64,000 nt of DNA from assembly GCA_000165345.1 (NCBI GenBank), contig CM000436.1:1120001-1184000 (forward strand), read 5' to 3'. Made by a program: the position numbers and the translations under genes. Below, piece by piece: positions 9,743 to 60,167 of this stretch (position 1 is the stretch's first letter; each line of letters begins with the position of its first letter). The notes beneath the pieces are model-generated. The model had not been told where the DNA came from. It made no database searches and was given only the letters and a program-made list of their open reading frames with translations.

Positions 9743-9757
9743 TGGCGCCGGCGCCAT
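9743..9757. promoter_or_regulatory. Tandem E2F-like site TTGGCGCCGGCGCCA, about 285 bp upstream of SOF1
   Basis: Read directly. Two overlapping GGCGCC hexamers. Confidence 0.5.
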
Positions 9758-9975
9758 CTGTCATGCGGACACGTAATAAATTTTTTTTAAAAATTACTAA
9801 ATACATGCAATACTAAAAAATAAATAAATAACAATCGTAATGAATCATCATAAATTGACAATATTAGATATATAAATTAATAATTTAAGTTTCATATAAA
9901 TAAATTAAATTGGATTTCTGTTGGTGAATATTATCGTAGAAATGAGTTGAAATATAATTGATGTAGTTATTAATA

Positions 9976-12336
9976 TTAATTAATATCATCAGTAATATCA
10001 TTCTCATTACTATTAGAGTTTTGGCTAATTGATCTCTTTGCTATATTGTTATTCATTGAAATACTCTTTGATTCATTATAAATTGACTTTGAGCTGCCAT
10101 CCTTATGGAAAGATCTGATACTTTCAATTCCACGGTTATTTTCACTCGAATCTATGGTTTTGTTTCCATTATCTAAACTTCCCGAACTTGGAGCATGTTG
10201 ATGATCTACATGATCCATATTAATATTTGATTTGGATGAATCTTCCAGGTTATTCCCGGTTGAAAAGTCCATAAGACTTCCAGCTCGTGTATTTTGTCTA
10301 TATGTCTTTTTATTCATTGATTTGATCATTTTAGTCAATTTCTGAATCTTTTCAGACATTATTTCATTCTCCCCCTCTAGAATACGATACTTTTCTTGCA
10401 TTTCTCTAAAATTGTTTTTAATTCTTTCATATTCTGATTCAGGTACATTTTTTTCTGGTGGACTAAGTAAATCAACTTGAATCTTTGGAATATACTGAGT
10501 ATTTGCCATAATTGAAGATTTTAATGAAGAATATTCAATTAATCCGCCATCATCCCCTCTTGATGAACTATTTAAACTTCCACTTACACTACTAATATTA
10601 CCAGATCCTTCAATATTTGTTGAGTTCTCAATAATTTCTTCAATCTTTCCTGCCATTTTACTTTTTGAATTACCAAATACTGAAGGTAATACTGATAATG
10701 GTGGTTGTTTAAAGTTTCCACCATCCCAAATTGGACTTTTTGCCAGATTTTTATTCATTTGATTACGAACTCTTAAAGGTTCAAAACCTAAATTTGCATT
10801 GCCAATATCCTCATATAGAAATTCAGATCTTGTCACAACAGAAAATTCTTCTTCTCTAAAAATATATTGAAGCTTATGAAGAAGTTCCTGTATAATTGCA
10901 TAATGTGTTGGAAGTGGGTGGCCTAGAGTATAAGCCTTCATTTGTTCTCCAAGAACTATACTTCTATGTTTTAAATAAGATGCTCTTGCTACAGCTTCAT
11001 CTACTTTCCATTGATTTTGAAGTTGTTGTATCCAAAATAATAAATTCTCAGCTTGATTATCTGGCATTCTCCAAGCTTCTTGTTGATATTGAAGCTTTGC
11101 TTGAACTAATTCCATTTGTCTAATTAATAGTTGAAAAACGTCCTGTTGTGAAAGTAATTCCTTAATTGTATTTAATTGTTTTGTTGACTTTTCTTGTTCT
11201 TCCCTATAATGGTCTAGAATTGACTTAATTTCATTCTTATACTTTCTATTTTCAATCAGTAATTCTTGACTTGAGGTCTTCAAATACTGAAGTCTTGTAA
11301 TCAACTTGGTTAATCCTGCATCGCCACTTTTATATGATGAAATATTATCTTGTAAATCTGTTAATTCATCCATTATCTCAAATTTCTCCATTAGTATTTG
11401 TTGATTAGATTTTTGTAATTGTGAAATCTTTTCATGTAACTGATTCTTTTCCTCAATAAGAAGCTCTTTTTCACTTCTAACATTACTTAAGTCTTCTCTA
11501 ACTTGAGTTAATTCTGCTGCTTTTTGTTCCACTGCTTCACTTGTTGCTTTTTCAGTGACAGTTAATGTACTTTGAAGCTTTTTAACTTGATTTTGAAGAC
11601 TTTCATTCTTAAATTTTAAACTTTTATTTTCATTTTCCATTTGCTTAAATTGATGTTTTAATTTATCTAATTGTTGCGATAATTGGTTTATATCTCTTCC
11701 TCTATAATATCCTCCAGCAACACTTGCAAACTCTCCTTTCATACTATGAGATACTCTAAAATTTTCTTCATCAAATTCTTGGTCAGAATTATCTACAACA
11801 TATCTCATTTGTCCATATTGTATTGATTGGTTCATTGCAATACACCATCTAGCTGAAACATTTGGTGAGCTTGCTGCAAATATTAAAGGATTTGATTCTA
11901 TCCCAAGAGAACTGTTATAATGTAAAAGAATAATTAAATGTACATCTTTTCCAATATTCTGACGTAGAATTGCCTCTTCTTCTCTTGTAATATATTCTCT
12001 CTGAAGTGCTGTAATTGAATCTATAGTGCTAATTACTGTATCGCATAATACATATACAACTTCTAATGTGGATCCATCTTTCTTACTTGTACCAAACATC
12101 ATTCCACCCTTTAAGTTAAAATAATATTGTTCCCAATTATCTTCTTCTAAACTAATATCACGTCCATATTGATTTCCTTTCAAGTTTAGTACATAGAGCC
12201 ATCCACAACATTCAGGATTTATAGAAGCAGATCTTGACAATGAGAGAAGAGATGAATCTTGGATTCGAATTTCTACTTTGTTTATTAGTTCAAATCCACT
12301 CTCTTTTGATTGGTTGTAATCATGTTTCTTAGTCAT
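9976..12336 (-). CDS. Hypothetical 786-aa protein. It has an N-terminal globular (PH-like?) region, a long central coiled coil and a Ser/Asn-rich C-terminus.
   Basis: Uninterrupted ORF. Heptad-rich central segment (LDKLKHQFKQMENENKSLKFKNESLQNQVKKLQSTL...). I recognise no specific family. Confidence 0.55.
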   Translation of the reverse strand: MTKKHDYNQSKESGFELINKVEIRIQDSSLLSLSRSASINPECCGWLYVLNLKGNQYGRDISLEEDNWEQYYFNLKGGMMFGTSKKDGSTLEVVYVLCDTVISTIDSITALQREYITREEEAILRQNIGKDVHLIILLHYNSSLGIESNPLIFAASSPNVSARWCIAMNQSIQYGQMRYVVDNSDQEFDEENFRVSHSMKGEFASVAGGYYRGRDINQLSQQLDKLKHQFKQMENENKSLKFKNESLQNQVKKLQSTLTVTEKATSEAVEQKAAELTQVREDLSNVRSEKELLIEEKNQLHEKISQLQKSNQQILMEKFEIMDELTDLQDNISSYKSGDAGLTKLITRLQYLKTSSQELLIENRKYKNEIKSILDHYREEQEKSTKQLNTIKELLSQQDVFQLLIRQMELVQAKLQYQQEAWRMPDNQAENLLFWIQQLQNQWKVDEAVARASYLKHRSIVLGEQMKAYTLGHPLPTHYAIIQELLHKLQYIFREEEFSVVTRSEFLYEDIGNANLGFEPLRVRNQMNKNLAKSPIWDGGNFKQPPLSVLPSVFGNSKSKMAGKIEEIIENSTNIEGSGNISSVSGSLNSSSRGDDGGLIEYSSLKSSIMANTQYIPKIQVDLLSPPEKNVPESEYERIKNNFREMQEKYRILEGENEIMSEKIQKLTKMIKSMNKKTYRQNTRAGSLMDFSTGNNLEDSSKSNINMDHVDHQHAPSSGSLDNGNKTIDSSENNRGIESIRSFHKDGSSKSIYNESKSISMNNNIAKRSISQNSNSNENDITDDIN

Positions 12337-12376
12337 TTTTCTCTATTCTTTGAAAAATTAAGATTGATATGGAAGT

Positions 12377-12435
12377 ATATTATATATATATATATATATA
12401 TGTATATTATATATATATATATATATAATATATTT
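12377..12435. repeat. (TA)n microsatellite
   Basis: Read directly. Confidence 0.7.
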
Positions 12436-13276
12436 AATAATTATATAATAGAAACAATAATTAAATGATTTGCAATAGCAATAATAATATTTATTGAAGC
12501 TTCTTTGATTCTTTGCTTAAATATAATATTGTGAGCTCTTCTGATTGTATTGAAATCGAATCATAATACTTATTAATTTAGGATCTAAAAATATCTGGAT
12601 AAATTAAATTATATTGCGTAAAGAAACTTTTGATTTTATAAATTTTAAGTAGAGATTCAAGTAGTAATATTTAAGGCTTGAGTTAATTTTAATTTCAGTC
12701 ACTGAACTAATTTTTATTAAGAATATTTTGAATTTTAATTTTTGATTACATGAATTAATATTTTGACTGCCTCAACTTTTCCCGCCTTTTAAATTAATAT
12801 TTAAAATAATATTTTTGTTCTAATATAAAATGGCCACTAAGTATTGTCTAAGTCTAAAAGGACATTAAAATAATTAAAAATGTGAAGAAAAAAAAATCTA
12901 AGAGAATTTGAGAGTAAAGGAATAAAATATAAGCTAAATAAGTATGATAAATCTAAGTTGCAAGAACTAAAATGAGTAAATTTGTTAGATATTGAATATA
13001 GAAAATAATAAATATTATTTAAAAAAAAAAAAAAATGTGTGCATTTTGTGTGCGCACAAAATAACTTAATAATCAATAATATTCATTTAGTAAAAAAACT
13101 TAACTTGAAAATATGGAACGATATTTTTAAACTAAATTAGAACTTCTCCTCTTTTTGGTATAATAATTTTAATAACACTATAAACAAAAAATAAAAGTTA
13201 AATCTTCCTCTTTTTTTTTTTTTTTTGTTAGAGAATTAATTTAAATGTATATAAATTAATATAAATCAAACTAATA

Positions 13277-14581
13277 ATGGTAATTAATGAAAAAGGAAAA
13301 AAAGAAAACAATAATGAAATATCACCTAAACATAAATTATCAGATCTTTGTTTATTGGATTTATCAAGGGAAACATCATCTCTTCAATTACCAAATGCAT
13401 TTAGTAAATTAATGTCAATTAGTAAACAGTTACAAAATGAATTAAAGCTAACAAGAAAAGAAAGAGATGATGCCTACAACTCTTTAATTCTACAGAGGGA
13501 TTACTATGAACAGTCAGTGGGGTGTCCAATGAATAATGATAATGGTAGAAATGAAATAGTAAGTTAAAAATTTTTATATTTACCTATTTATAATTGAATC
13601 AATGAATTTGAACTAAAATATTTGAATTTGAATTAATTTTAGTTAGAAAAGTTGCTTAATGATACAGCTAATATTGAATATAGGGCAGAATTGAATAATT
13701 TAAAGAGAGAATATGAAAGAAAGGTAAGTAATTCAATAAGGAGACAGAAAATATTGCAATAATGATTAAACCTTATGTTTTTGAATAATAATATTGATAA
13801 TTTTTCTGTCATTATTCCTTGTTTATTTATTATTTTTTTTATATATAACTTTGATAACTATTGATTAATAAATAAATAATTAATCATTACTTTAGATTTT
13901 TGAAATGGAAAAGGAATTTGAAGAAGAAAGTAAGACATTAAAAACACAAATTTTGAAGGATGTAGAGATTTACTTGGCTAAATATAGAGATTTAGCAATG
14001 TTAGCAACAGAAGAAGCAAAAAGACAGCAAAAAAAGGCAGAATTAATAAAGTTAAAAACAAGAGAATTAACAGAAATAACATGTAAATCTTTTGAAGAAA
14101 AGCTACGTAGTAAAATGCAAGAAGATTTGAAGAAATACGAGGAGGCTACTCAATCAGCATATTCAAAAATGATTTTGAAGGAAAAATCTATGAATATTAA
14201 ATGGAATGAAAGGGAAAAGTTTATTGAAAGAGAAAAGAAGGATTTCGAAAAATCGATATTAAAGCAAGCAGAAAAAAGAATTGAAGAATTTAGAAGAGGG
14301 TTAATGACAACTCAAGCACAATTAAATAAAGAAAGAGAAATATTCGAAGATATGATGGGAAATTTGAGGGAAAGGGTAAGTTATAAATTAATTATGAATA
14401 TTAAAATATTTTTTTTTTTCATTTTAAAATTATACCAATTTATTAGATTTCCTCTGAATGTGCTGAATTTGAAAAAGAAATGTATCATAGGTTTGCTGTT
14501 ACATTCAGTTTGGATGAAAATGAAGTCTCAAGAAGAATGCAAAATTATAATGATGCATTAGAAAAGAAAGGTATTAATTAA
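13277..14581 (+). CDS. Four-exon gene encoding a coiled-coil protein of about 325 aa (hypothetical)
   Basis: Exons 13277-13558, 13643-13723, 13896-14375 and 14447-14581. Each intron starts GTAAGT (13559, 13724, 14376) and ends TTTTAG/CTTTAG/TATTAG. Reading frame is maintained across all junctions (...NEIV|LEKLLNDTANIEYRAELNNLKREYERK|IFEMEKEFEE...GNLRER|ISSECAEFEKEMYHRF...EKKGIN*). The ORF track shows only two fragments. Confidence 0.5.
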
Positions 14582-15114
14582 TTAAGATATTTATTATAGA
14601 AATTTATAGTTTAATTATTTATATATTCAACAAAAAATTGTAAAAATTTTTTCTAATCATTTTCTTTTGTCAATTCTATTCAATATTACGTCATTATTAC
14701 GTCATTGTAACGCCAGAGATATTATTTAATTAAAAAAAAAATTCGTGTGAATTGCATGTAAATTTGTTTATTACAATAAATAACCTTATAATAAATAGGT
14801 GAGGGGCCAAAAAGTTACCGCCAAAACATTGTCTTATTAATGGTCAAATTAATAATTACCAGAAATTAAAAGCAAATCAAATCTAATCAGATTTATAAAA
14901 AATTGTAAAGTTTGATTCTAAAATTTTTTTTGTTTGAAGTAAAATTTAAAGATTAAAAAAATAACAATTGAACTATTTTATTTTTTTATCTCCAAACAAA
15001 CATATTCATAAAATTAAACAGAATTTTTCCCAGAATATTACACAAAAAATATTTAATCTATTATTAATATCATAATCAATTAAGCTTTTTGAATTTAAAT
15101 TAAATTAAAAAAAA

Positions 15115-15600: not shown

Positions 15601-16174
15601 TGCTTTATGACCTATAATGTGCAACAATAACTGCAATAAGTAGCTGCTGCTGGATTCAGCCCTTTACATTGGGACTATAAAGCATGGAAGGCATAAATAA
15701 TATCGCTCCTTTTATTAATCATCCAATATCTAGCTTTATTGGCATACTATATCAACTTGAACTTTAATCGAAAGAGAGAAACAATTTCTAACAATAAAAA
15801 AGAATAATTCTAGTTATATAACAATTATTTCTATTTTACTTTATTTTATTTTATTTTTCTCCCATTATTTTTCTTCTTTGTATATTATTTATATTATTTA
15901 TAACACGTAATATATTGTTTTGTTAAACTATTTTGATAATTTACACAAATCAACCTTGAAACTTTGCATATTTCAAAATTTTCTAGTTGTTCATCGACCA
16001 AAATTTAATCACTAAATTATGAAATTCTTATTATTTATTCGAATTCCCCTCATTTTGTTTTCAATTAGTAGAAAACTTAAAGATAATACTAAATTAATAT
16101 GAACATGTAATTTATTCCCAAAAATTAAAATATAAATTATTATTATTATTATTACCTCTCCTCATGCATGCAAT

Positions 16175-17617: not shown

Positions 17618-18926
17618 TTCAAATTATATATTACGACACTTCCTTGCTGAATACAATATCTTATTTAATATTTACTATAAGTTATATTTTATCTTACTTT
17701 TCACACAGTATCAATTAAGATCTTCTTAAACTTTAATTCTGTATTAGTAATAATTGATTTAGTATTATTTCAAATTAGTTTTCTTTTTAAACTGTTTTTA
17801 CAGTTTAATAATAAAAGAGATCTTAATTAATGAATTGTGGAATTCTAATTACGATAATGTATCTACAACGGAACTCTGAAATGAGATATTTCCTGGTACT
17901 TTTTATTTTTAATTACATACAGTATTGTCGAGGGTGATCAATGTACACTTAAATATTTTTACCTTTAAAATTCAAAGTAATACAAACCTAATTTTTTTTA
18001 ATTAGATCTGAGGACACTCAAAAACTTGTTCATTCCATCAAAAAGAAATGTAATAGTAATCAAATAGTATATTTAAATACTCATTTGATTACTTCTAATC
18101 GGTTCTCTTTTCTATTATTATATTAATCTAATTAATACTTCACACTTTCAATTATTTACCACCTCGATATTTACCGCCAATTCCCCCCTTAATTTTTACA
18201 CCCTTGAAATTAATATTGAATTTAATCACATTGGCGCCAAATTTTCCAAATTGTTATTGTGGACAATTATTAACAGATAAAATAGAAAATAATTGTGGGG
18301 AAATGGGTAAATGATAGTATAAATAATAAAACTATTACAGCTAAAAACTTGTTACAATTTATTTGCTTGATTTTTTTTTGTCATCTTTCTTTATGAATAG
18401 TTAATGCAAATATCTTTTTGAAATATTCATAAGTTCTATTATTATTATTTTTTTTTTTAAGAATATGGAATTAAAACTAATGGGTGCAGTTGCATGCACT
18501 AAATTTATTTCAATAATTTCTCAATTAGATTTTATTTGTAAATTATTGGATAGTTTTATGAATAGTTTAGTTATTCATTAATTTAATGATTAATTAAATA
18601 GTATAAAAGCTTTTAATTATTGAATAATTTTGTTGTTTTATATGAGAAAAAAAATTGCTGTATTTGATCTTTAGTGGCGTATAATGTCTTTGTGAAAATG
18701 TTAATAAGTGATTATTTGAAAATAATTGAAAAAATAAACTTAGAAAAATTTTAATAAAAAGTTGAGTAATTGATATTTTCTTCTAGTATGAATGTATGTT
18801 ATAAGCTCATTTAAGTAAAATATATTAGGGTAAAAAGTGAGTATTGGTCAATTTTAATATTTTCCTTTTTAAGATTAAATAAAATATATTAATAAGAAGG
18901 AAAAAAAAATTTAAATCAAAAGAAAG

Positions 18927-20510: not shown

Positions 20511-20669
20511 TTTAGATAGGATTTAATTTGTTATTAATTTTGTATCTATACTTGTGGGGATATTCTTTCTCTCTTTTCATGCGCATTAATTAAATTATTT
20601 TTTCCAGGGTTTAAACTATTCAACCTGGCGCTCAATTTTGCATGCCCTCTTGAAATTAATATACATTTG

Positions 20670-20701
<32 letters not shown>

Positions 20702-20731
20702 TACAACAATAAATTCAAAATTTTAATTTAA

Positions 20732-21406: not shown

Positions 21407-21437
21407 ATCAAATATTTATTCAAATTATATTATTTAA

Positions 21438-22925: not shown

Positions 22926-24415
22926 GGATCCTACTTNATCTTCAGAATCTAATAATATTGCTGAAATCGCCCCAGCTTAANTTNCAATTCCCATTCTGGG
23001 AGATTATGTNNAAAAATCTTCTTTACACACTTTNCCCTTCATTTTTTTTTTTCAANTTATACTTCCCAATATATATATATATATATATATTTCTATAATT
23101 GTTTGAAACTTGTAATCCATTATTCAAATTATATTTATGTATTTGTTTTAAAATATTATTTGATATAAATTATTTTGATACATGCACGCATTACTTTGCA
23201 ATAATATAGCTTAAGATTCAGAGAATTTTCAGACTCCACATTTATTTAAAAAAATGCATTAATATATACAATAGCATAAAGATAATGTGAAGTGAAATTT
23301 TTTTGAATCTACTTTCTTTTAATTCTATGCAATTACAAAACAACTGGAATTCAAGTATATTGGTATAAGCAATTTTTTCTTTCTAATGATTGCTTAAACT
23401 TCTTCTTTACTTTCTTGGGTAATTTGAGTGCATATTTCAATAATTAAATGAATTATTGAAATATGCTAAAGTTAGAACAGGAGGAAAAAAAAAAATTACC
23501 AAATTCAAAGTTATTCACTAAAAATTCTTAATATATTTAATTTAAATATTTTTGTTTTGGCGCCAGACTTTGTTTCTACTAATAATAATGTGGGGAATTC
23601 CTAGTAAAAAAAAAAAATAATNTATNATAAAATAAAATTTGAATAATAATAATTTTTATATAAAATNAATGATTTTCTATAAGAGTNTTTGATTAANTTT
23701 TATTACATTTCCCTATTAAAACTGGTGTAGATTTTTCTAATTGAATGATTTTTTTTTGTTTTGGTTTAATTTAAAAGATATATATATTTGTGTATCTATT
23801 TATAGATTTATTTATAATTTTAATATTTAAATTAATTTATGAGGTTTTTTTTTGTTTTATTAATATAATTTTGATTAAATATTTTAAAATTAATTTTCCA
23901 GTTTTAAATTTTCTATTTTCTAGATGTTTTCTGCATGCATTGCATGCATTTTTATATATTTATAATTTTTCGTGTGGACGAAATTTTAAGTTTATATAAA
24001 AGTAAAATTTTAAAGAAAAATAATAGAAGATATTTGAGTAATATAATTAAAAAAAAATTGTTTTGATCAAACAAAATAATATTACAATTCATATTAATAA
24101 ATTCTTTTTTCTTCTTCTTTTTTCTCTTTCTAATTTCTTCTTATTTCTTAATATTATCGATTAAGAAAATACTACATATACATAAGAATTAAAATTGAAA
24201 TTAAAATGATTGATAATTTGAATTTGAGTTGAGTTAAGGTTTACATTTTATAATTTTCTTAATAAATGGAAAAAGAAAATAATCAGAATAAAAAGAATAG
24301 TCGAGTTGAGTTAATAAAAGAAAGAGAAAGAAAGAGAATGGAAGAAAGAAAGAGAGTGAAAGTCGTTATATTTTGAAAATAATTAAATACAAATAATTTA
24401 ATATTATTTAAAATA

Positions 24416-25533: not shown

Positions 25534-25569
<36 letters not shown>

Positions 25570-25630: not shown

Positions 25631-32053
<6,423 letters not shown>

Positions 32054-33341: not shown

Positions 33342-33357
33342 AATTTGGCGCCAAATT
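33342..33357. promoter_or_regulatory. Perfect 16-bp palindrome AATTTGGCGCCAAATT (E2F/DP-like site) in the CHD/ELO divergent spacer
   Basis: Read directly from the sequence. A GGCGGG site lies 35 bp downstream (33392-33397). Confidence 0.55.
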
Positions 33358-33943
33358 GTGGTTATGAATTTATGAATAATATTGCTGTGAAGGCGGGCTA
33401 AAAAGGGGGGAGTCAGGTATTTGTTCATTCAGAATAAATAAAAAAATGTATATAATATATATATATATATATTATATACATATGAATTGAAAATGATGGG
33501 TACCGTAAATAAATTTGTTGAACAAGTAATACAAAATTTGAATGTATTTATAGTTTAAAAAAGTTAGTATTAAATCATTAATTATTACACAAGTGAGAAC
33601 ATATATAAATATAAATATACTTGGAGATTTAATAATAATAAATTAATATTAAGAAAAGAAGAAGTATTTTGAATATAAAAAGTTCTCCTGTACAAGTACG
33701 AGCTCGAAGATATTTTTAATAAGCCTATTTTGTTTCAACTTTTTGTATTATTTGAAGTTCATGTAAAATAATTCTTGGATATATTTTTATATTACTTTTC
33801 ACTCAAATATTCAATTGGGAATCTATTAGCCTATATCTAATAGCACTCAATACAAATTTGCAATAAATTAAAAGTATAATGCAATTATAACATTAAATTA
33901 TTAAAGAATTATATTATAAAGATAATTAATAAAGGAGACAAAA

Positions 33944-34915: not shown

Positions 34916-35261
34916 TACCCCTGGCCTTATTATATTCAAAATGGCGGGAAAATGTGCATATAAGAGATATATAATATATATGCTTGTATATATTTAAAAT
35001 CAGGATAAGCAAGTTGTATAAGAATTATCACAACTCTTTGAATTGACTATAATAAGCCTATTCTACATCAGTAATTAAAAAAATGGATAATTCTAATTCA
35101 GGAATGAGAAAAGGAAATAACTTATTTAAAGGAAGATAATTAATTATAAAATATTAGAAATTGTTTAGCCTAGTAATTAAGATAATAATGTAAATGGCTA
35201 TATGATTCTTACATATTTTTGAGCTCTCTTTTTTATTGCTTTAATAATTTTCCTATGATGA

Positions 35262-36503: not shown

Positions 36504-36738
36504 TAAATAGAAACCGGATATATTCTATATAAGTTTATTTACGCAACAAATATGATACCCCCTCTTTATTCTCTTTTTGTTCAATTCGTTTAAAATGTCA
36601 ATTTTTTTTGTTTTTGTTTTTAATAATTTTGTAATAAACAAAAAGGCGCCAAATCGCCAACTATTATAATATAAATGAATTATCAAATAGAGATGACATA
36701 ATAAATATTAATAATAGAATTATATAATATTCTAAATG

Positions 36739-37125: not shown

Positions 37126-37653
37126 TTTTTTTTTTAAATCTCAAGTTACACTCAATTTCCCAACTTATTTCAATTTCACACGTCTAAAAAAACAATATTC
37201 ACAAAATTTCAGTCAATAATCACAATTCTTAAAACAAATTAATTCTAAAAGTCTCAGCAATAATAGAATCCTTGTTTCAATTAAAGTAAGAATGTGCTCC
37301 AATCTTTACTTCCATTTCATAATACATTTCTATTTTGATACTTTAATTTCATAATACATACTATTAATAATTTAACATCAGCCCGCCAACACGTTTGAGC
37401 GCGCAAATATTTACTATTAAACATGTAAAAGATAAACATTTTTTAAATGTGAAAAATACCTAAAAATGTCAAGGATTGCAAGGAATCTGTCATTTGAATT
37501 AATGTGTGCTAGTTTATACTTTCTTTAATATAATATTTCCATTTATGTTTATATTATACTTTAACTAAACAAATATTAAGTCTAGAAAAACTTTGCTCTT
37601 AACAACATAATCTAGAGAAAATTCTTGAAAAGTAAGAATTAGGTTAATCTATT

Positions 37654-39489: not shown

Positions 39490-39846
39490 TTCCATTTTTT
39501 TAATCCCGGTATCGAGCCACGTATGGCGCCAAAGTTTGTAGATGAATAATAAATTATGTGGAAGAATTTTATGCAATAAAAAAAGTTTTAAATAAAGACA
39601 AAAAAAGGAAAGAGAGAAGAAAAAGGGGAGGAAATATTTCAAGTAATAATTAAATAAAATAGTAAGGTGGAAGAGTGAAATAAACTAATAAATATTGTTT
39701 GGCTTAGCCACTAATTTGTTTTCATTTTCTGACACGTAATTAAAATTAACTTTGAAATGGATTGAGATCTGGAAAGCTTAGTATATATTTCTTTCTTTCT
39801 TTTTATATTATTTAACTTAAAAAAAATAAGTGAGTAGTAAATAAAT

Positions 39847-41536: not shown

Positions 41537-42070
41537 ATCTCACAGCTTTTTTTTGACTTTAATATACTACTTATCTTTCTATTTATTAATAATTTACATA
41601 TATTCATATATATATATAAATATATATTATATGTATATATACACGTAAATATAAATATAATTATAAATAAACAAATATTCCCAGATTTTCTTTGAAAAAT
41701 CTCTTATTAGTTCAAAATCAAATTATTATTATTTTTCTATGTCAACTTTTACCTCTTATTTTATTATTTTTTTTTTTTCTTTACACTTATTTTCCATTAT
41801 TCTTAAATAATATATTTAAAATAATATTAAATGAACCGCCTATTCTTCCCGCCTAAAATTCTTTATATTATTTATACCGACAGAAAAAAAGCAAAAAGTA
41901 CATGCGGACGAGTTAAGGAGGATAAATTAAAAGTAATTTAATTCTGAATTAAGACTTTAAGTTTATTCAAATCTTTTTACTACTTTTTTTCTTTATGCTT
42001 CACATTTCTCTTCACCTCAATCTAATTCATCCCATCTCTAATCTTTTGATATTTTGACTTTAATTTTTAA

Positions 42071-46828: not shown

Positions 46829-47062
46829 TTCTAAGCAAATAAAAAACCTTCCTTCTAGGCAAATCAGAGTTTTAGGAAAAATTTAGAATTCAAAGATTAT
46901 TTTAATATAGTTTAGCTATCTATCACTTAATTTCAAATTTACTAATACAACTTTTACGCGCCAACTAATAGTAATTGTTAGCATGTAATAAGTCTTTGAC
47001 AATACAAGAATATTTCTTTCAACATTCTAAGTTCCTCAAAAGGAATTTATTCCCAAAAGGAC

Positions 47063-49040: not shown

Positions 49041-49463
49041 GGCGCCTCATGTCGATACTTAATTTGCCAAAAAAAAAGTGTTGATGCATAAGATCCAAAA
49101 AAAAAAAAAAAAAAAAAAAATCAAATAATAAATTTTTATAATTAAATAAAATATATATCTGCATAAGGATCTAAACTACTTATACAAGGTTTTCTTTTTA
49201 TTATTTTTTCTAATTTCTTTGATTTCCAAATTTTTATTTTTAAATAAATTAGAATATTTGGCGTCATGGCAAATTGGCGCCAGATGAAGTGCATTTTTAT
49301 GTTTGGTTAAAATATTGAAAAAAATTTTTAAAAAACAAAACATTCACAATCAAAATTTCAACAATCATTTTTTTATACTCTAGCTGCTTTAAAAATCTGA
49401 AATTTTAAAATTTTAATTTTAATGGTTTGTTTCTAATATTAATAAAAAAAAAAAAAATGGCGC
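49041..49463. promoter_or_regulatory. Cluster of three exact GGCGCC sites (49041, 49276, 49458) plus a GGCGTC variant (49260) in the divergent promoter between the zinc-knuckle gene and seryl-tRNA synthetase
   Basis: Read directly. Each site is flanked by T/A runs (TTTTGGCGCC, AAATTGGCGCCAG, AAATGGCGCCCAT). Confidence 0.5.
49097..49120. repeat. Poly(A) run of 24 nt in the intergenic region
   Basis: Read directly. Confidence 0.7.
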
Positions 49464-49693
49464 CCATATTCAAAATATTTGTATATTTAATTATGGCAAA
49501 TTGACTCACATAAATTTAATACATAATATAAGACAAAAAAAAATTATTGAGGGGATTTATATCAAAAATAAAAGGCAATAAAAATTACCTTATTAAATTG
49601 TAAGTAATAGCAAGTTATTCGAAATTATTTGAAAAAGAAAAGCTCAATATAAATAAGATTAGTTTTAAACATATTACAATATAAGTATTTATT

Positions 49694-51058
49694 ATGCCTA
49701 TAGATATTAATAGAATTAGAGTGGAGAAAGGTGGAGATTATCAAAAGATAGCCGAGTCAGAAATGGCAAGGTATAAAGGACTAGAAACTCTTGAGGAACT
49801 CGTTAAAGTAGATCAGAAATGGAGAGAGGATATGTTTAAATTAGAGCAAAGCAAAAAGGAGTTAAATTCAATTTCAAAAGAAATTGCTCAAATTAAAAAG
49901 AAAGATCCAAAGGCAGATTGCAAGGATTTACAAGACAAAAGCGTTCAATTAAAGAAGAATCTTCCAATTATCGAGAAACAAGCATTGGAAACTGAAGAAG
50001 TAAGAGATAAGTTATGGCATAAAATTGGTAATGTCTTACAACCTGATGTTCCTATTTCCAATACAGAGGATGACAACCTTGTATTGAGAACATGGGGAGA
50101 AATACCAGATATTAAGGTTGATGGAACACCAGGGAAATTGCATCACAATGAAATCATGTCCAGATTAGGATTCTATGATAGTGTGAAAGGTGCAGAATTA
50201 GCAGGCCATCGTGGTTACTTTTTAAAGGATTATGGTGTAATAATGAGTATGGCTCTCTCACATTATGCTATGGGATTCTTGTTAAAAAAAGGATATTTGG
50301 CAATTCAACCGCCATACTTTATGAAAAGAGATTTGATGGGTAAAGCAGCTGAATTGCAGGACTTTGAGGAGACACTTTATCACATTCCTTCTGATAACAG
50401 CAAAGGCGAGGTTGATTCAAATAGCTTATTTTTGATTGCAACATCTGAGCAACCAATAGCTGCAATGCATCATAATGTGACACTTGAAGATAAGGACTTA
50501 CCAATCAAATATGCTGGTATTTCAACATGCTTTAGAAAAGAGGCAGGCGCTCATGGTAAAGATACCTGGGGAATATTTAGAATTCATCAATTTGAAAAAG
50601 TTGAGCAATTCTGTGTTACTTTACCAGAAGACTCACAAAAGATTCATGAGGAAATGATTAGCATTTCCGAGGAATTTTATCAATCTTTGGAATTACCTTA
50701 TAGAGTAATTTCAATCGTATCAGGAGCGCTTAATGACGCTGCATCGAAAAAGTATGATTTAGAAGCTTGGTTCCCCGGATATAACTCATATAGGGAACTT
50801 GTTTCATGCTCAAACTGTACTGATTACCAATCTAGAGCGCTTGAATGTCGTCTGGGATTCAGAAAAGAAGGAGAGCGTGAAAAACATTACTGCCATTTCC
50901 TAAACGGTACTTTATGTGCAATCCAAAGAACAATGTGCTGTATTGTTGAAAACTATCAAACTCCAGATGGTCTTAGAATACCAAAAGTCTTACAGCCTTA
51001 TATGAATGGCGTCGAATTCATTCCATTCAAAAACGAAACCGCTACTTGTGCCAATTAG
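49694..51058 (+). CDS. Seryl-tRNA synthetase (class II), cytosolic type, 454 aa
   Basis: N-terminal MPIDINRIRVEKGG, typical of the SerRS coiled-coil arm. Class II motifs: motif 2 FRKEAGAHGKDTWGIFRIHQFEKVEQF, motif 3 GTLCAIQRTMCCIVENYQ. Confidence 0.85.
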   Translation: MPIDINRIRVEKGGDYQKIAESEMARYKGLETLEELVKVDQKWREDMFKLEQSKKELNSISKEIAQIKKKDPKADCKDLQDKSVQLKKNLPIIEKQALETEEVRDKLWHKIGNVLQPDVPISNTEDDNLVLRTWGEIPDIKVDGTPGKLHHNEIMSRLGFYDSVKGAELAGHRGYFLKDYGVIMSMALSHYAMGFLLKKGYLAIQPPYFMKRDLMGKAAELQDFEETLYHIPSDNSKGEVDSNSLFLIATSEQPIAAMHHNVTLEDKDLPIKYAGISTCFRKEAGAHGKDTWGIFRIHQFEKVEQFCVTLPEDSQKIHEEMISISEEFYQSLELPYRVISIVSGALNDAASKKYDLEAWFPGYNSYRELVSCSNCTDYQSRALECRLGFRKEGEREKHYCHFLNGTLCAIQRTMCCIVENYQTPDGLRIPKVLQPYMNGVEFIPFKNETATCAN

Positions 51059-51219
51059 TCTTTTTTTAGCATACGTGGGAAGGCGGGCTTTTCCCAACAT
51101 AGAATTGCATGCAAACTTAAATATATATAGGAAATATTCACAAAATTATAAATATGAACAATTAAGTTTGTGAAATTTAGAAAATCTATATTTTAACACT
51201 AGAATTTAATAAGTTATTT

Positions 51220-52908: not shown

Positions 52909-53737
52909 ATCATTATTTTTCTTTTTTTTCCCTTAGTAAAATAGATTTCTGTTTTCAATATAGTTTACTTTTTATTTTACTTTAACTTTTATTCTTTATT
53001 TTATACTTATATTTTGATAAGCCTATTTAGTTACTTACCTTAACACACTTCCCCCCACTAAAAAAAAAGCCAAGAATATTAATATCAAGTGATTAATATT
53101 TCACTAAATAGATTTTCAAATCACACAGATCTCAAGGGAATAGTGTCAGATTACCTTATTTTCTCGAAATTCTAATTTTTTTTAATACTTAATTAAATTT
53201 GTTTATTGCTTTAGCATGCACACCATTTAAGAATATTTACTAATACCTTAATTTCTGACCTAAATGTGTGTAATACAACAAATAACTTGCCAGGACTCTT
53301 TTATTCTTATAATAAACCTTTAAAATATTATCAAGATGTATTATATATATATATTTTTTAGTTACACCTTCTTTAACCCGGCCTTTGAAAATTTAAATAT
53401 TTCAATTTAGTATTCATCCTTTTTTTTTTTTTTTCAAATTACCCCATCAATTGCATTTCACAGTTTACCGCCAAGTCCCTGCCTACAAATGTGAGAGTTC
53501 CCGCCTTTAATTAACAGTTTTGGCGGGAGCTGATTGTTAGTCTTCGAGAACTGAGCGCGTAAATGTGGAATTGGGGCAAAAATGCATATATACTATCGGT
53601 TGGGACCGGAGAGGGGTAAATGGGATCTTATAAGGAGAAAAAAAAAAGAAAGAAGAATAGTATTGTCTTTGAAGTGATCATTTAATTGTTTGTTATTGAT
53701 TTTTTTTCTATTTGTTTATATCACCTAATAGTATGAA

Positions 53738-54813: not shown

Positions 54814-55261
54814 ACTCTGAACTAGATTTGACTCTTTTTTTAACATTATTATTATTACTATATATAGATACATACTCAGCAACTAAAAGTAATGAATTTT
54901 TTTTCCTTTTGATACACTCTCAAGATAATGTAATATTCAATATTATCACACAGAAAATATCTAGAAATTTGAAGAAAATTCATATATCAGTAGCCACACT
55001 ACTATTTCATATTTCTAAACTTAAAGAACTCTTATATTTTATGGTGATGATGATTTTGATTTCTTTAACCATTTTTACTTTTTTCAATTAATATATTATC
55101 GCTCGTAATAATTAAAAAAAAAAACAAAATTACCCGCCAAAACCCTCACAGTGATTAGTGCATTTTTGCAGAGGAAAAAAAATTAATACCTAAATAAAAT
55201 TAATTAATTTACTATTTTCAAGCACAGAATAATTAGTTAAATTAAATATAAGAGAATCAGG

Positions 55262-55549
55262 ATGTTAGTAAACACAGATGTTGATATTTCAAATGAATTA
55301 GAATCTATGTCCATTTTAAGGCCAAAGTACCCAACACATGTAGTGACTAAACAAGGAATAGAGTTAAGAAGTTCATCTTATGGAGTTGAAGATAGAGAGG
55401 GTAATATTGGTGAATTATTAGCAGTAACTCAGATCACAGGAGTTGTTTATATGACATTTGATTCTTCTGGAAGGCTTTATTCAATTGAAAAAGATATTGC
55501 AAGAGAATTTCTTGGAGAGTTGCAGGATGAAAAGATGAGTTGGGAATAA
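55262..55549 (+). CDS. Small hypothetical protein (95 aa)
   Basis: Uninterrupted ORF with coding-like composition. An E2F-like CCCGCC site lies about 125 bp upstream. No family recognised. Confidence 0.3.
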   Translation: MLVNTDVDISNELESMSILRPKYPTHVVTKQGIELRSSSYGVEDREGNIGELLAVTQITGVVYMTFDSSGRLYSIEKDIAREFLGELQDEKMSWE

Positions 55550-55986
55550 GCCTAAGAATATTTAGGTTAATTTTGGTAGAATTTGAAAGAGGTTGGGATC
55601 AGCTTTAAGAGAGGAGAGAAAGGAATAATCAAGAAGCTGAATAGTTATTAGTAAAATATTAATTTTACTAATTTAATAAAAGGAGAGAAAAAAAAAATCT
55701 GTAAGGAGGTAGCTACTTAAAATTACTATTTGAATTTTTATTCCTTGATAAGAAATGTTTGTCAAATAAAAATGAGATGAAATTTGGAACTGGTTAGAGA
55801 TTTATTTGATCTAGATTTGTAGATGTATAAGTCCTTTTCTATCATTTATACTACTAATTCTCCTTCTCTTCCTTCATATTTACTCATTAAAATTACGTAA
55901 TAAATAAATTTCAGATTAATTATTATGTACATTTTTTTTAAGTTTTTTTTAATTATATCACTTTTTTATCGAAGTGACTTATTCTA

Positions 55987-56068
55987 GGCAAAGTGCTCGA
56001 GTGGTTAAGAGGTCAGTCTCGAAAACTGATAGCGTTTCGCTGCGCAGGTTCGAATCCTGCCTTTGTCG
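55987..56068 (+). tRNA. tRNA-Ser (anticodon CGA), type II with long variable arm
   Basis: Acceptor stem GGCAAAG/CTTTGTC with discriminator G. D-loop GTGGTTAAG. Anticodon stem TCAGT/ACTGA with loop CTCGAAA (anticodon CGA). Long variable arm. T-arm GCAGG-TTCGAATC-CTGC. Immediately followed by a T6 Pol III terminator. Confidence 0.85.
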
Positions 56069-56069
56069 G

Positions 56070-56075
56070 TTTTTT
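56070..56075 (+). terminator. Pol III oligo-T terminator of tRNA-Ser
   Basis: TTTTTT run directly after the tRNA 3' end. Confidence 0.6.
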
Positions 56076-56322
56076 CCCCCCTATATAATTGGTAATAATT
56101 GGAGAAGAATCAAATTAATTGAAAAAATGAGGGAAATGGAGTGAAGAAAATGAAAAGGAATGTAGTAAAAAAATATTATGTATAACTAAGTGAATCAAAT
56201 GATCGTAAATATACTTTAGTATATTTTATCCTTTATATGCTATTATGGTTGATTTAAAAAGAAAGATAATTAAAATTCTTTTTATTTTTCCTATATTATA
56301 GGAATATTAAAGTTATCTACTA

Positions 56323-57882: not shown

Positions 57883-58171
57883 GGCTTACTTCACTCTCCA
57901 AATCTTTTCTTGATATATATTCAAAGTGATAATTTTCGTATCGGGACAAATTCCAAGTAGCTGCAATTCAAATATATTACTATTGTAATGCTTGAATTAC
58001 TGATATAATAATCAAATCTAGATGAAAAATAGTAAATAAATTCCCTTCCTCTGATCTTTTAGATTATTGATTATTATTCTAATTCCTTTTGTTCCACCCC
58101 CTAGAAAGAATTTTTTTTAAATATTAACCTTCCTTTATTCTTTTCTTCCTTAATAATTCGGTACCAGTTTC

Positions 58172-58191
58172 GGCGCCAGACCTTTGGCGGG
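58172..58191. promoter_or_regulatory. E2F-like pair TTTCGGCGCCAG ... TTTGGCGGGC in the DBP5/PRMT1 divergent promoter
   Basis: Read directly. Confidence 0.5.
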
Positions 58192-58405
58192 CATATTAAA
58201 GACATTATAATGTCAAATATTTTGTGATGAAAAAAGAGGAAAATTTGCAGAGAAAATTAGGTGGAGAAAAAATACTTTAATTTGGTTAAAGTAGATTCTT
58301 TTAAAGGAAGGATTTAGGGTATTAATATTAAAATTATTTGAATAAATAGTTTTAACTAAAAATTAAAAAAATAGTGGAATTGGGTTGAGTTTATTATATT
58401 GAATA

Positions 58406-59452
58406 ATGATTAAACCAACAGAAGAAGAGCTTAAAGAGTTTAAGAACTCCTGGAATCCATTAGTTCAAGAGGATATTAGCAGTGCAGATTATTACTTTAA
58501 TTCTTATGCTCATTTTGGAATACATGAAGAAATGTTAAAAGATTCAGTCAGAACTGGTTCATACCAGAAGGCCATAATGTCTAATAAACATTTGTTCCAA
58601 GATAAGATTGTCTTGGATGTAGGAAGTGGTACAGGAATTCTATGTATGTTTGCTGCAATGGCAGGAGCAAAGCACGTATATGGTATAGAATGTTCAGAAA
58701 TTGTACATGTTGCCAGAAATATAATTAAGGATAATAATCTATCTGATAAGATTACCTTTATACAGAGTAAAGCTGAAGAAGCTGTTCTTCCTGTAGAAAA
58801 GGTTGATATTATCATTTCCGAATGGATGGGATATTTACTATTATATGAATCTATGTTGGATACTGTATTATTTTGCAGAGATAAATGGCTTAAGGAAGAT
58901 GGTTTAATCTTCCCAGATAGAGCACAAATGTATATTGCAGGTATCGAAGATGCTGAATATAAACAAGAAAAGCTTGGATATTGGAATAATGTTTATGGAT
59001 TTAATTATCAATATGTCAAACCTTGTATTATGGAAGAACCAATAATAGATACCGTTGGAGAGAATGCTGTTAATACAAGCTCTTATTGTATTCTTGATAT
59101 TGACCTTTACAAGTGTAAGAAAGAAGACTTAGAATTTGTATCTCCTTTTTATCTTAAGGCTGCTAGAAAAGACTTTGTTCATGCTTTCATTGTATGGTTT
59201 GATATCATTTTTGGATGTGGTCATAAACCTGTTACTTTTACTACAAGCCCTTTTGGGAAATATACTCATTGGAAACAATCAGTATTCTACTTTGAAGAAG
59301 ATCTTGTTTGCGATACTAATGATATGATTTCAGGAATATTTGCTTTAAAGAAGAACACTAAAAATGTCCGAGATCTTGACATTAAAATCAAATTCAACTT
59401 TACAAAAAATAATTCTTCTATTGAAAGGATTAACTATTATAGACTAAGGTAA
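58406..59452 (+). CDS. PRMT1: Protein arginine N-methyltransferase, type I (PRMT1-like)
   Basis: VLDVGSGTGILCMFAAMAGA (SAM motif I), IISEWMGY (double-E loop), and the THW loop (KYTHWKQ). Confidence 0.85.
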   Translation: MIKPTEEELKEFKNSWNPLVQEDISSADYYFNSYAHFGIHEEMLKDSVRTGSYQKAIMSNKHLFQDKIVLDVGSGTGILCMFAAMAGAKHVYGIECSEIVHVARNIIKDNNLSDKITFIQSKAEEAVLPVEKVDIIISEWMGYLLLYESMLDTVLFCRDKWLKEDGLIFPDRAQMYIAGIEDAEYKQEKLGYWNNVYGFNYQYVKPCIMEEPIIDTVGENAVNTSSYCILDIDLYKCKKEDLEFVSPFYLKAARKDFVHAFIVWFDIIFGCGHKPVTFTTSPFGKYTHWKQSVFYFEEDLVCDTNDMISGIFALKKNTKNVRDLDIKIKFNFTKNNSSIERINYYRLR

Positions 59453-60167
59453 AAGCTTTAACATGATTGTTTTGTATGCTCTTTTCAATCATTAGTTATT
59501 ATTATTTTACAATATAAAGGTGAAACATAAACTTACAGATTCTTAAATTGAATATTTTATACACTCTTATTATGTATTTTTATGCTTTAATTCAATGATA
59601 TTTTGTATCTATTTACCACTATTCTTACTGCTTCTTATAACATTAACATTTATTTGAATTAATTTACATGCAATCTGATCTGATTATAACATAGTCATTC
59701 CAAAACATATAAAAGAATTATTCTAGACTAAATGAACCAAACTATTCAAAACTAACTAAATTAAATCTCCATATCTACTGTAATTGTTTCTATAAATTCT
59801 TTCTTTTTTTATTTACAATATTTGATCATGTATTTATATGTGTGGTTTCCCGCCGGCGCGCAACCACTTTAAAGGTATCGAAGTAATATATGAAATTATG
59901 TAGATGGAAAAAAAAATAAAAGAAAAAAAGAAAATAGCAATTTAGACAAATTATAAATATTTAAAATTGAATCTTGATTACAAGTATTTGAGCTTTTTAG
60001 GACAAATTGAGGGGGAGTAAAGCTAAGGCTTCGGATAAGGATACTTTGAAACCTTATTGTAGGAGTGTTAGGGAGAAATTTAATAAGGCCCTGCTCCTTA
60101 CAACAATAAACCTTTATTGGTTTAGTAATGAGAGTTTACTTCATCTGAACAAACGGAGGAGTCTAGA

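What the first reader, a model, noticed from the sequence alone, without database searches (positions are those of the whole stretch)
9743..59866. GGCGCC / TTTCCCGCC (E2F-DP-like) palindromes are almost confined to promoter-sized intergenic spacers
I count 11 exact GGCGCC hexamers outside coding sequence, at 9744, 9750, 18233, 23559, 33347, 36645, 39525, 49041, 49276, 49458 and 58172. Many sit in TTTGGCGCCAAA-type palindromes. There are also CCCGCC/GGCGGG variants at 12777-12786 (TTTTCCCGCC), 14817-14826, 33392, 34943, 37382, 41848, 51083, 53499/53522, 55133, 58186 and 59847-59866 (TTTCCCGCCGGCGCGCAACC), and GCGCGC palindromes at 7627-7638 and 37399-37404. In DNA of roughly 30% GC, a given GC-only hexamer should appear about once or less in 64 kb by chance. 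Only one further GGCGCC lies inside a CDS (31082, in a GC-richer part of the CHD gene). Nearly every divergent or upstream spacer in the window carries one or more sites. This matches the E2F consensus TTTSSCGC. It resembles the E2F-like upstream motif described for Cryptosporidium, which is the basis for my tentative taxonomic guess. The promoters of the POLD4-like gene (37382-37404) and of CHD, Sof1 and RPF2 carry sites, so a cell-cycle / biogenesis regulon is plausible.
Basis: partly seen in the sequence, partly recalled or inferred. Interest (0 to 1): 0.55.

Follow-up and report, generated by a model that had tools for sequence, protein, structure and literature searches.

The report
Known E2F-like promoter motif of Cryptosporidium
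The GC-only palindromes between genes are real, far above chance and conserved across Cryptosporidium species, but they are the E2F-like upstream motif already described for Cryptosporidium parvum since 2003-2013, so the finding is correct and ordinary.

Summary
GGCGCC occurs 12 times against 0.35 expected, 11 of them between genes. Taking SGCGCS plus GGCGGG/CCCGCC, 25 of 29 sites lie in the 27% of the window that is intergenic and AT-richest.

Sites occur in 16 of 19 spacers that contain a promoter and in 2 of 7 convergent spacers. The median distance is about 290 nt upstream of the nearest ATG. Flanks are T-rich 5' and A-rich 3', as in TTTSGCGCSAAA.

The window is Cryptosporidium parvum: 99.5-99.9% identical to C. 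parvum assemblies, with an exact seryl-tRNA synthetase match.

In aligned orthologous spacers, 9 of 13 sites are identical in C. canis (background 5.7% of hexamers). Six of 8 are identical in C. ubiquitum.

This is the published "E2F" motif (TGGCGCCA, [C/G]GCGC[G/C], GGCGGG). It is the most over-represented upstream motif in C. parvum and dominates ATAC-seq peaks. The parasite has two E2F and two DP genes, but binding has not been shown experimentally.

The suggested cell-cycle/biogenesis regulon is not supported, because nearly every promoter carries a site, whatever the gene's function.

Novelty: already known. Interest is low.

The parts
7627..7638 (.). TTGCGCGCGCAA palindrome (contains CGCGCG), 446 nt upstream of the 2222-aa gene (516-7184, - strand)
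9744..9755 (.). Tandem GGCGCCGGCGCC, 282-288 nt upstream of the Sof1 gene (8003-9462, - strand; PF04158)
12777..12786 (-). TTTTCCCGCC (GGCGGGAAAA on the - strand), near the middle of the divergent spacer (445 | 491 nt to the two ATGs)
14817..14826 (-). Weak variant ACCGCCAAAA (5/6 core), about 290 nt upstream of the DUF2053 gene
18232..18239 (.). TGGCGCCA within TTGGCGCCAA, mid-spacer (634 | 689 nt) between divergent genes; conserved exactly in C. ubiquitum
20626..20631 (+). Weak variant TGGCGC in the 221-nt tandem spacer upstream of the 224-aa gene
23558..23565 (.). TGGCGCCA in the divergent spacer between the 532-aa gene and NUDIX; conserved in C. ubiquitum and present in C. felis
31056..31114 (.). 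Intragenic cluster GGCGCG / GGCGCC / GGCGGG within 59 nt, about 940-1000 nt into the CHD/SNF2 coding sequence; holds 3 of the 4 genic sites in the window
33344..33398 (.). TTTGGCGCCAAA (the centre of the 16-nt palindrome AATTTGGCGCCAAATT, 33342-33357) plus GGCGGGC at 33392; 547-592 nt upstream of ELO and about 1300 nt from the CHD ATG
34943..34948 (+). GGCGGGAAAA 28 nt after the ELO stop codon in a convergent spacer; conserved exactly in C. ubiquitum, where TGCATGCA follows it
36645..36650 (.). GGCGCC 142 nt upstream of the 413-aa WD40 gene; exactly one GGCGCC in the orthologous spacer of all five species examined
37381..37404 (-). GCCCGCC plus GCGCGC, 257-274 nt upstream of the POLD4-like gene; the GGCGGG is conserved in C. 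ubiquitum and C. felis
39524..39531 (.). TGGCGCCA in the divergent spacer between the 397-aa and 194-aa genes (317 nt from the nearer ATG); conserved in C. ubiquitum and C. andersoni
41848..41853 (-). CCCGCC 318 nt upstream of the Brix-domain gene; conserved in C. canis, C. bovis and C. ryanae
46957..46962 (.). CGCGCC 128 nt upstream of the RIO1 kinase gene; identical in C. canis, GGCGCC in C. ryanae and C. muris
49041..49465 (.). Three GGCGCC sites (49041, 49276, 49459) in the 813-nt divergent spacer between the 605-aa gene and seryl-tRNA synthetase
51082..51088 (+). GGCGGGC 24 nt after the seryl-tRNA synthetase stop codon (convergent spacer); AAGGCGGGCTT is conserved in C. canis; TGCATGCA lies at 51106
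53500..53527 (.). Inverted pair CCCGCC-N16-GGCGGG, 211-233 nt upstream of the phosphopantetheinyl transferase ATG (53738); the pair is conserved in C. canis
55133..55138 (-). CCCGCCAAAA 124 nt upstream of the 95-aa ORF; conserved in C. canis
58172..58192 (.). GGCGCC-N8-GGCGGGC in the middle of the DEAD helicase | PRMT divergent spacer (293 | 229 nt); it and the palindrome beside it are the conserved stretches visible in the C. canis alignment
59846..59861 (.). TTTCCCGCCGGCGCGC, about 310 nt upstream of the CPSF_A-domain gene; conserved in C. canis

Best explanation
These are the E2F-type cis-elements of Cryptosporidium parvum promoters. The cores are SGCGCS (mostly the palindrome GGCGCC) and GGCGGG, usually with T-rich 5' and A-rich 3' flanks.

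They sit about 120-650 nt upstream of start codons. In divergent spacers they often lie near the midpoint. The most likely reader of these sites is the parasite's E2F/DP winged-helix heterodimers. Those dimers would act as a near-general promoter-proximal activator or open-chromatin organiser for one or both flanking genes, not as a switch for one regulon.

Shown here: enrichment, register-specific sequence, promoter-side location, and purifying selection across species.

Taken from the literature: the presence of two E2F and two DP genes, the absence of Rb, and the dominance of the motif in ATAC-seq peaks.

Inferred: that E2F/DP is the binding factor, and that binding activates transcription.
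For: Enrichment. GGCGCC occurs 12 times against 0.35 expected, GGCGGG 13 against 0.70, and TGGCGCCA 5 against 0.02. In an unbiased ranking of intergenic 6-mers, GCGCCA, GGCGCC, CGCCAA and CCCGCC come directly after low-complexity words.

Sequence specificity, not general GC-richness. Other GC-only hexamers are absent from intergenic DNA, for example GGGCGG/CCGCCC, GCCGCC and CCCCGC.

Location. Twenty-five of 29 sites lie in the 27% of the window that is intergenic. Sixteen of 19 promoter spacers carry a site, against 2 of 7 convergent spacers. Across nine loci from eight Cryptosporidium species the figures are 49 of 79 against 6 of 39 (Fisher P = 1.5e-6). Genic density is 0.12 per kb and promoter-spacer density 1.21 per kb.

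Flanks. T is the commonest base at each of the three positions 5' of GGCGCC, and GGCGGG is followed by A(A)(A) in about half the sites. Both fit TTTSGCGCSAAA and TTTCCCGCC.

Conservation. Nine of 13 sites are identical in aligned C. canis spacers, where only 5.7% of hexamers are (P = 3.5e-9). Six of 8 are identical in C. ubiquitum (P = 1.7e-4). One GGCGCC lies upstream of the WD40-413 orthologue in all five species examined.

Literature. The same motif is described and named in PMC3734150 and PMC4117751. ATAC-seq data and E2F/DP expression are in 10.1101/2025.01.17.633476.
Against: No experiment has yet shown E2F/DP binding to these sites in Cryptosporidium (review PMC12246861). I could not retrieve the E2F/DP proteins with these tools to check their DNA-contacting residues.

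Transcription start sites are not known to me for this window, so 'promoter' rests on gene orientation and distance to the ATG.

Per kilobase, convergent spacers are not significantly poorer in sites than promoter spacers (0.83 against 1.21 per kb, Poisson P = 0.14). Two conserved sites lie just after stop codons, and a three-site cluster lies inside the CHD coding sequence. Not every site is therefore a classical mRNA promoter element.

Strict sites look sparser in C. bovis, C. muris and C. andersoni (about 0.4-1.0 per kb of promoter-containing spacer, against 1.6 in the window).
Confidence: 0.8

Rival explanations
1. The sites are functional promoter elements, but a factor other than E2F/DP reads them, for example an ApiAP2, C2H2 zinc-finger or other GC-recognising protein. 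On this view the resemblance to the E2F consensus is coincidental.
For: No direct binding data exist. Oberstaller et al. note that the expression profiles of the E2F genes do not track all motif-bearing clusters, and that presence of a motif does not prove binding.
Against: Both canonical E2F variants co-occur with the expected T/A flanks: the symmetric SGCGCS and the asymmetric GGCGGGAAA (= TTTCCCGCC). The Sp1-type register GGGCGG is absent from intergenic DNA. The motifs reported for C. parvum AP2 domains on protein-binding microarrays were TGCAT, CACACA and the G-box, and the paper treats the E2F motif as recognised by a non-AP2 protein (PMC4117751). Cryptosporidium is reported as the only apicomplexan genus that keeps E2F/DP, and this motif is the most over-represented one upstream of its genes.
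Confidence: 0.12
2. One reading: the sites define a specific cell-cycle / ribosome-biogenesis regulon (POLD4, CHD, Sof1, RPF2-like), as classical E2F targets do in animals and plants.
For: Sof1 (9744-9755), the POLD4-like gene (37381-37404) and the Brix-domain gene (41848) do carry conserved upstream sites. Earlier work reported enrichment upstream of DNA-replication and ribosomal-protein genes.
Against: Sixteen to 18 of 19 promoter spacers carry a site. The genes include seryl-tRNA synthetase, DHHC palmitoyltransferase, phosphopantetheinyl transferase, ELO, NUDIX, PRMT, RIO1 and several genes with no recognisable domain. Genome-wide, the motif is upstream of 161 of 200 expression clusters, which peak at every time point.
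Confidence: 0.05
3. The sites have a non-transcriptional or architectural role, such as a chromatin boundary, nucleosome exclusion, a replication origin, or a 3'-end/termination signal. Alternatively they are a compositional or chance artefact.
For: Two conserved sites sit 24-28 nt after stop codons in convergent spacers. The site-density difference between promoter and convergent spacers is modest.
Against: Chance is excluded by the shuffles and by conservation at single-hexamer resolution. Most sites sit at promoter-like distances from an ATG (median 288 nt in the window). Published ATAC-seq places the motif in 5' open-chromatin peaks. E2F/DP1 motifs were found within 100 bp upstream of 93+ antisense lncRNAs (PMC7840661), which gives a transcriptional explanation for the sites at 3' ends.
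Confidence: 0.03

Closest known systems
C. parvum 'E2F-like' over-represented upstream motif (Bankier 2003; Mullapudi 2007; Oberstaller 2013 motifs 3 and 4; Xiao 2025 ATAC-seq)
   Same: Same organism and same sequences (TGGCGCCA, [C/G]GCGC[G/C], GGCGGG). Same upstream and bidirectional-promoter location, and the same near-ubiquity across functional classes.
   Different: Nothing essential. This window adds a local illustration, plus explicit cross-species footprinting. I did not see such footprinting in the passages I read, but it may have been done elsewhere.
Canonical animal/plant E2F-DP site TTTSGCGCSAAA / TTTCCCGCC (structural basis cited: Zheng et al. 1999, E2F4-DP2-DNA)
   Same: A 6-bp GC core with T/A flanks. 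Both symmetric and asymmetric variants occur, and the sites are promoter-proximal.
   Different: In animals and plants the site marks a cell-cycle/replication regulon gated by Rb pocket proteins. No Rb orthologue was found in C. parvum, and here the site is present at nearly all promoters.
ApiAP2 motif TGCATGCA (AP2_1) of apicomplexan promoters
   Same: Also a short palindrome strongly enriched in this window's intergenic DNA: 9 against 0.52 expected, 8 of them intergenic. It sometimes lies close to an E2F-like site, for example 51082/51106 and 39474/39525.
   Different: A different sequence and a different factor family, with protein-binding-microarray evidence of AP2 binding. It is shared with other Apicomplexa, whereas the E2F/DP family is reported only in Cryptosporidium within the phylum.
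Sp1/KLF GC box (GGGCGG)
   Same: A GC-only promoter hexamer that superficially resembles GGCGGG.
   Different: The GGGCGG/CCGCCC register has 0 intergenic occurrences here, against 11 for GGCGGG/CCCGCC. The sites are therefore not GC boxes.

Membership tests
C. parvum E2F-like upstream motif (Oberstaller 2013) | Sequence 5'-[C/G]GCGC[G/C]-3' (TGGCGCCA) or 5'-GGCGGG-3' | tested here: met
   SGCGCS occurs 16 times, GGCGGG 13 times and TGGCGCCA 5 times, each far above the shuffle expectation.
C. parvum E2F-like upstream motif (Oberstaller 2013) | The organism is Cryptosporidium parvum | tested here: met
   Exact seryl-tRNA synthetase match to C. parvum Iowa II / ATCC. DNA identity to three C. parvum assembly loci is 99.5-99.9%.
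C. parvum E2F-like upstream motif (Oberstaller 2013) | Over-represented in upstream non-coding regions relative to coding sequence | tested here: met
   Twenty-five intergenic against 4 genic sites (17-fold by density). Sixteen of 19 promoter spacers carry a site. The motif-related words rank at the top of the intergenic 6-mer list.
Canonical E2F/DP binding site | A 6-bp GC core with T-rich 5' and A-rich 3' flanks (TTTSGCGCSAAA) | tested here: met
   In the symmetrised flanks of GGCGCC, T is found in 16, 12 and 13 of 22 cases at positions -1, -2 and -3. GGCGGG is followed by A in 6 of 11 sites. TTTSSCGC occurs 11 times against 0.72 expected.
Canonical E2F/DP binding site | E2F and DP winged-helix proteins are encoded in the genome | not testable with these tools
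   No searchable C. parvum proteome was available and the genes are not in this window. The literature reports two E2F genes (cgd1_1560/1570, cgd6_1430) and two DP genes (cgd7_3650, cgd8_1850).
Canonical E2F/DP binding site | Physical occupancy by E2F/DP and an effect on transcription | not testable with these tools
   This needs EMSA, DAP-seq, CUT&RUN and reporter mutagenesis. The 2025 review says such components lack functional validation.
Canonical E2F/DP binding site | Marks a cell-cycle / DNA-replication regulon controlled through Rb pocket proteins | tested here: not met
   Sites occur at nearly all promoters, whatever the gene's function. Rb orthologues are reported absent. The element works like an E2F site in sequence terms but not as a regulon-specific switch.
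Functional cis-element (generic) | Purifying selection relative to the surrounding spacer | tested here: met
   Nine of 13 sites are identical in C. canis, where the background is 5.7% of hexamers (P = 3.5e-9). Six of 8 are identical in C. ubiquitum, background 14% (P = 1.7e-4).
Sp1-type GC box | Core GGGCGG | tested here: not met
   CCGCCC/GGGCGG has 0 intergenic and 1 genic occurrence.

The most novel reading that the evidence does not exclude
A minority of the sites may be something other than mRNA promoter elements. Candidates are the conserved GGCGGG 24-28 nt after the stop codons of ELO (34943) and seryl-tRNA synthetase (51082), each with a TGCAT-type (AP2_1-like) motif nearby in at least one of the two species compared. 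A further candidate is the three-site cluster inside the CHD coding sequence (31056-31114), kept through GC-rich codon choices in C. parvum, C. ubiquitum and C. felis.

These could be dedicated promoters of unannotated antisense or internal transcripts. More speculatively, they could be E2F-dependent 3'-end or insulator elements in a genome where genes are packed tail to tail.

A related reading is that a single palindromic E2F site at the midpoint of a divergent spacer acts as the core bidirectional promoter across the genus.
Probability: 0.3. Interest if true: 0.4.

Novelty: already known. Interest (0 to 1): 0.15.

Why it matters
The E2F-like motif is regarded as the most abundant candidate transcription-factor site in Cryptosporidium. 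It is also one of the features that separates gene control in this genus from the ApiAP2-dominated control of other Apicomplexa.

This window adds no new biology. It confirms that the motif can be recognised from raw sequence alone. It also shows that individual sites are under selection across species as divergent as C. parvum and C. canis, and that presence of a site is kept as far as C. andersoni.

The open question is whether E2F/DP actually binds these sites and what it does without Rb. That question needs experiments, not sequence analysis.

Tried and rejected
1. Chance or base composition. Rejected by dinucleotide shuffles and by a first-order Markov expectation for intergenic DNA.

2. 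General GC-richness or CpG-island-like patches. Rejected because only particular hexamers are enriched, and the sites sit in the AT-richest fraction of the window.

3. Sp1-like GC box. Rejected because GGGCGG is absent from intergenic DNA.

4. Artefact of ORF-based gene boundaries. I re-mapped the gene calls that accompany three NCBI C. parvum assembly records. This moved the phosphopantetheinyl transferase ATG to 53738, joined two ORFs into one intron-containing gene (13277-14581), extended Sof1 to 8003-9462 and added the RIO1 gene. The conclusions were unchanged.

5. Multiple alignment of spacers from distant species (C. muris, C. bovis, C. andersoni). The spacers are too diverged to align (32-41% column identity). 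For these species only presence or absence of a site per orthologous spacer can be scored.

6. Hidden RNA genes in the long spacers. ARAGORN and Rfam found only one tRNA-Ser.

7. Retrieving the Cryptosporidium E2F/DP proteins to check their DNA-contact residues. Not feasible: a search with a remembered metazoan E2F domain would be swamped by thousands of closer hits, so I ran no further search on it.

8. A newer experimental paper on E2F binding in Cryptosporidium. None was found in the held library for 2025-2026.

Full report

Yes. GGCGCC occurs 12 times in the 64-kb window. Dinucleotide-preserving shuffles give a mean of 0.35 and never more than 2.

Only 31082 lies in a coding sequence.

The related words are also far above expectation:
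- GGCGGG/CCCGCC: 13 against 0.70.
- SGCGCS: 16 against 0.65.
- TTTSSCGC: 11 against 0.72.
- TGGCGCCA: 5 against 0.02.

Other coordinate slips are by one base: 51082, 53500 and 59846. The '14817' site is ACCGCCAAAA, a 5/6 variant. The two GCGCGC palindromes are present.

**2. What organism, and what gene map?**

The seryl-tRNA synthetase ORF (49694-51058) is identical to the protein of C. parvum Iowa II and C. parvum ATCC. The C. hominis, C. meleagridis and other versions are distinct members of the same 90% cluster.

The window aligns end to end with three C. parvum assembly loci at 99.5-99.9% identity. It contains scattered N's, which break two ORFs.

I mapped the gene calls that come with those records onto the window. 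This gave 27 genes: 46.8 kb genic and 17.2 kb intergenic.

**3. Distribution**

I defined strict sites as SGCGCS or GGCGGG/CCCGCC. By that definition, 25 of 29 sites are intergenic, a 17-fold excess in density, although intergenic DNA is the AT-richest fraction.

All 8 divergent spacers carry at least one site. So do 8 of 11 tandem spacers and 2 of 7 convergent spacers. A relaxed core (WGGCGS) adds a site to each of two of the three empty tandem spacers.

The median distance to the nearest downstream ATG is 288 nt, with a range of 124-634 nt. In several divergent spacers the site is close to the midpoint:
- 12781: 445 | 491 nt.
- 18233: 634 | 689 nt.
- 49276: 396 | 413 nt.
- 58172: 293 | 229 nt.

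All five perfect TGGCGCCA octamers are in divergent spacers. With so few sites this is not statistically significant.

An unbiased ranking of intergenic 6-mers puts GCGCCA, GGCGCC, CGCCAA and CCCGCC immediately after poly-A and AT repeats. CATGCA, the ApiAP2 motif, ranks alongside them.

The enrichment is register-specific. GGGCGG, GCCGCC and CCCCGC are absent from intergenic DNA. This is therefore not general GC-richness, nor an Sp1-type GC box.

The flanks are T-rich 5' and A-rich 3', as in the E2F consensus.

**4. Conservation**

I fetched syntenic loci around the seryl-tRNA synthetase gene from C. muris, C. bovis, C. ryanae and C. canis. I also fetched loci around the CHD gene from C. ubiquitum, C. 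felis, C. bovis and C. andersoni.

Sites are overwhelmingly intergenic in every species except C. felis, where the GC-rich CHD gene holds 12 of the 13 genic sites. This includes the C. canis locus, which is 45% GC and has 21 intergenic sites against 1 genic.

Pooled over nine loci, genic density is 0.12 per kb and promoter-spacer density is 1.21 per kb. Forty-nine of 79 promoter spacers carry a site, against 6 of 39 convergent spacers (Fisher P = 1.5e-6). Convergent spacers are shorter, and the per-kb difference from promoter spacers is not significant on its own.

In pairwise alignments of orthologous spacers, 9 of 13 C. parvum sites are identical in C. canis. Only 5.7% of hexamers there are fully conserved (P = 3.5e-9). 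In C. ubiquitum 6 of 8 are identical, against a background of 14% (P = 1.7e-4).

Three further sites are conserved but were shifted by the aligner: 51082, 53522 and 49276.

In the alignment of the DEAD|PRMT spacer, the GGCGCC-N8-GGCGGGC pair and the adjacent palindrome are the clearest conserved stretches.

The short spacer upstream of the 413-aa WD40 gene has exactly one GGCGCC in each of C. parvum, C. ubiquitum, C. felis, C. bovis and C. andersoni. The distant spacers no longer align, however.

**5. What it is**

This is the E2F-like upstream motif of C. parvum.

Oberstaller et al. 2013 list E2F (5'-TGGCGCCA-3') first among the most over-represented upstream motifs. They give the cores [C/G]GCGC[G/C] and GGCGGG, and credit Bankier 2003 with first noticing the motif on chromosome 6. 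They also cite Templeton 2004 for the E2F/DP genes, which are absent from Plasmodium.

Later work adds three points:
- The motif lies upstream of 161 of 200 co-expression clusters.
- It is the dominant motif in sporozoite ATAC-seq peaks, more than half of which are bidirectional promoters. E2F and DP transcripts are enriched in asexual stages, highest early in development.
- It lies within 100 bp upstream of many antisense lncRNAs.

[quoted passage not shown] I found no later experimental paper.

**6. Mechanism**

The best-supported reading is that E2F/DP heterodimers bind these sites. They would act as a near-general promoter-proximal element, often shared by divergent gene pairs, in a genome without Rb.

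Shown here: sequence specificity, placement and selection. Inferred: the identity of the factor and the direction of its effect.

Genes of every functional class in the window carry the site. The sites assigned to CHD are nearer to ELO.

**7. Loose ends**

Two conserved GGCGGG sites lie 24-28 nt after stop codons in convergent spacers. A TGCAT-type motif lies close by in C. parvum, in the compared species, or in both. They are plausibly antisense-lncRNA promoters, in line.

Three of the four genic sites form a 59-nt cluster about 1 kb into the CHD coding sequence. GC-rich codons (CCC GCC, GGC GCC) are retained there in C. parvum, C. ubiquitum and C. felis. This could be an internal or antisense promoter. 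It is unproven.

**8. Verdict**

Interest is low.

Noticed in passing
window 31056-31114 (inside the CHD/SNF2 coding sequence, - strand gene 25631-32053): Three E2F-like hexamers (GGCGCG, GGCGCC, GGCGGG) lie within 59 nt, about 940-1000 nt into the coding sequence. They are 3 of the only 4 genic sites in the window. The codons (CCC GCC ... GGC GCC) are GC-rich choices kept in C. ubiquitum (GGC GCC) and C. felis (CCC GCG CGC GCC ... GGC GCG), but not in C. bovis or C. andersoni. This may be an internal or antisense promoter.
   Followed up: partly
window 34943-34948 and 51082-51088: GGCGGG sites lie 28 and 24 nt after the stop codons of ELO and seryl-tRNA synthetase, in convergent spacers. Both are conserved, in C. 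ubiquitum and C. canis respectively. A TGCATGCA/TGCAT motif lies about 10-25 nt away in one or both species. This fits the published finding that E2F and AP2_1 motifs precede antisense lncRNAs.
   Followed up: partly
window 58201-58214: A perfect 14-nt palindrome, GACATTATAATGTC, lies immediately beside the GGCGCC/GGCGGGC pair in the DEAD|PRMT divergent spacer. It sits within a 16-nt block (AAGACATTATAATGTC) that is identical in C. canis, and it occurs only once in the window. It could be a TATA-like or other core-promoter element.
   Followed up: partly
window 2233, 16165, 18491, 23932, 23941, 25380, 39474, 39478, 51106: TGCATGCA, the known ApiAP2 'AP2_1' motif, occurs 9 times against 0.52 expected. 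Eight copies are intergenic, and three of those lie in convergent (3'-3') spacers.
   Followed up: partly
window 7095-8681, 15571, 22937-23697: Scattered single N's and small indels relative to three C. parvum assembly loci (99.5% identity in this part). They truncate the Sof1 ORF (269 aa here, 474 aa in the assembly locus) and the DUF2053 ORF (161 aa against 229 aa). These look like sequence-quality defects in the window, not biology.
   Followed up: yes
window 55987-56068 (+): tRNA-Ser (anticodon CGA) lies in the spacer between the 95-aa ORF and the DEAD-box helicase gene. No strict E2F-like site is nearby.
   Followed up: no
L012 7201-8172 (-) and L013 7302-8273 (-): The gene calls for C. 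ubiquitum and C. felis lack the ELO elongase. A short 81-85-aa ORF on the opposite strand is called there instead. An intact 323-aa ORF is present at the syntenic position in both.
   Followed up: partly
L011 (C. canis) whole locus; L013 (C. felis) CHD gene: The C. canis locus is 45% GC, against 28% in C. parvum, yet keeps E2F-like hexamers almost exclusively intergenic (21 against 1). In C. felis the GC-rich CHD gene holds 12 of the locus's 13 genic matches, so hexamer counting loses specificity there. Strict sites appear sparser in C. bovis, C. muris and C. andersoni.
   Followed up: partly
window 18232, 23558, 33346, 39524, 49275: All five perfect TGGCGCCA octamers lie in divergent (bidirectional) spacers. 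Tandem spacers carry shorter or asymmetric variants. The sample is too small to be significant (about P = 0.08).
   Followed up: partly
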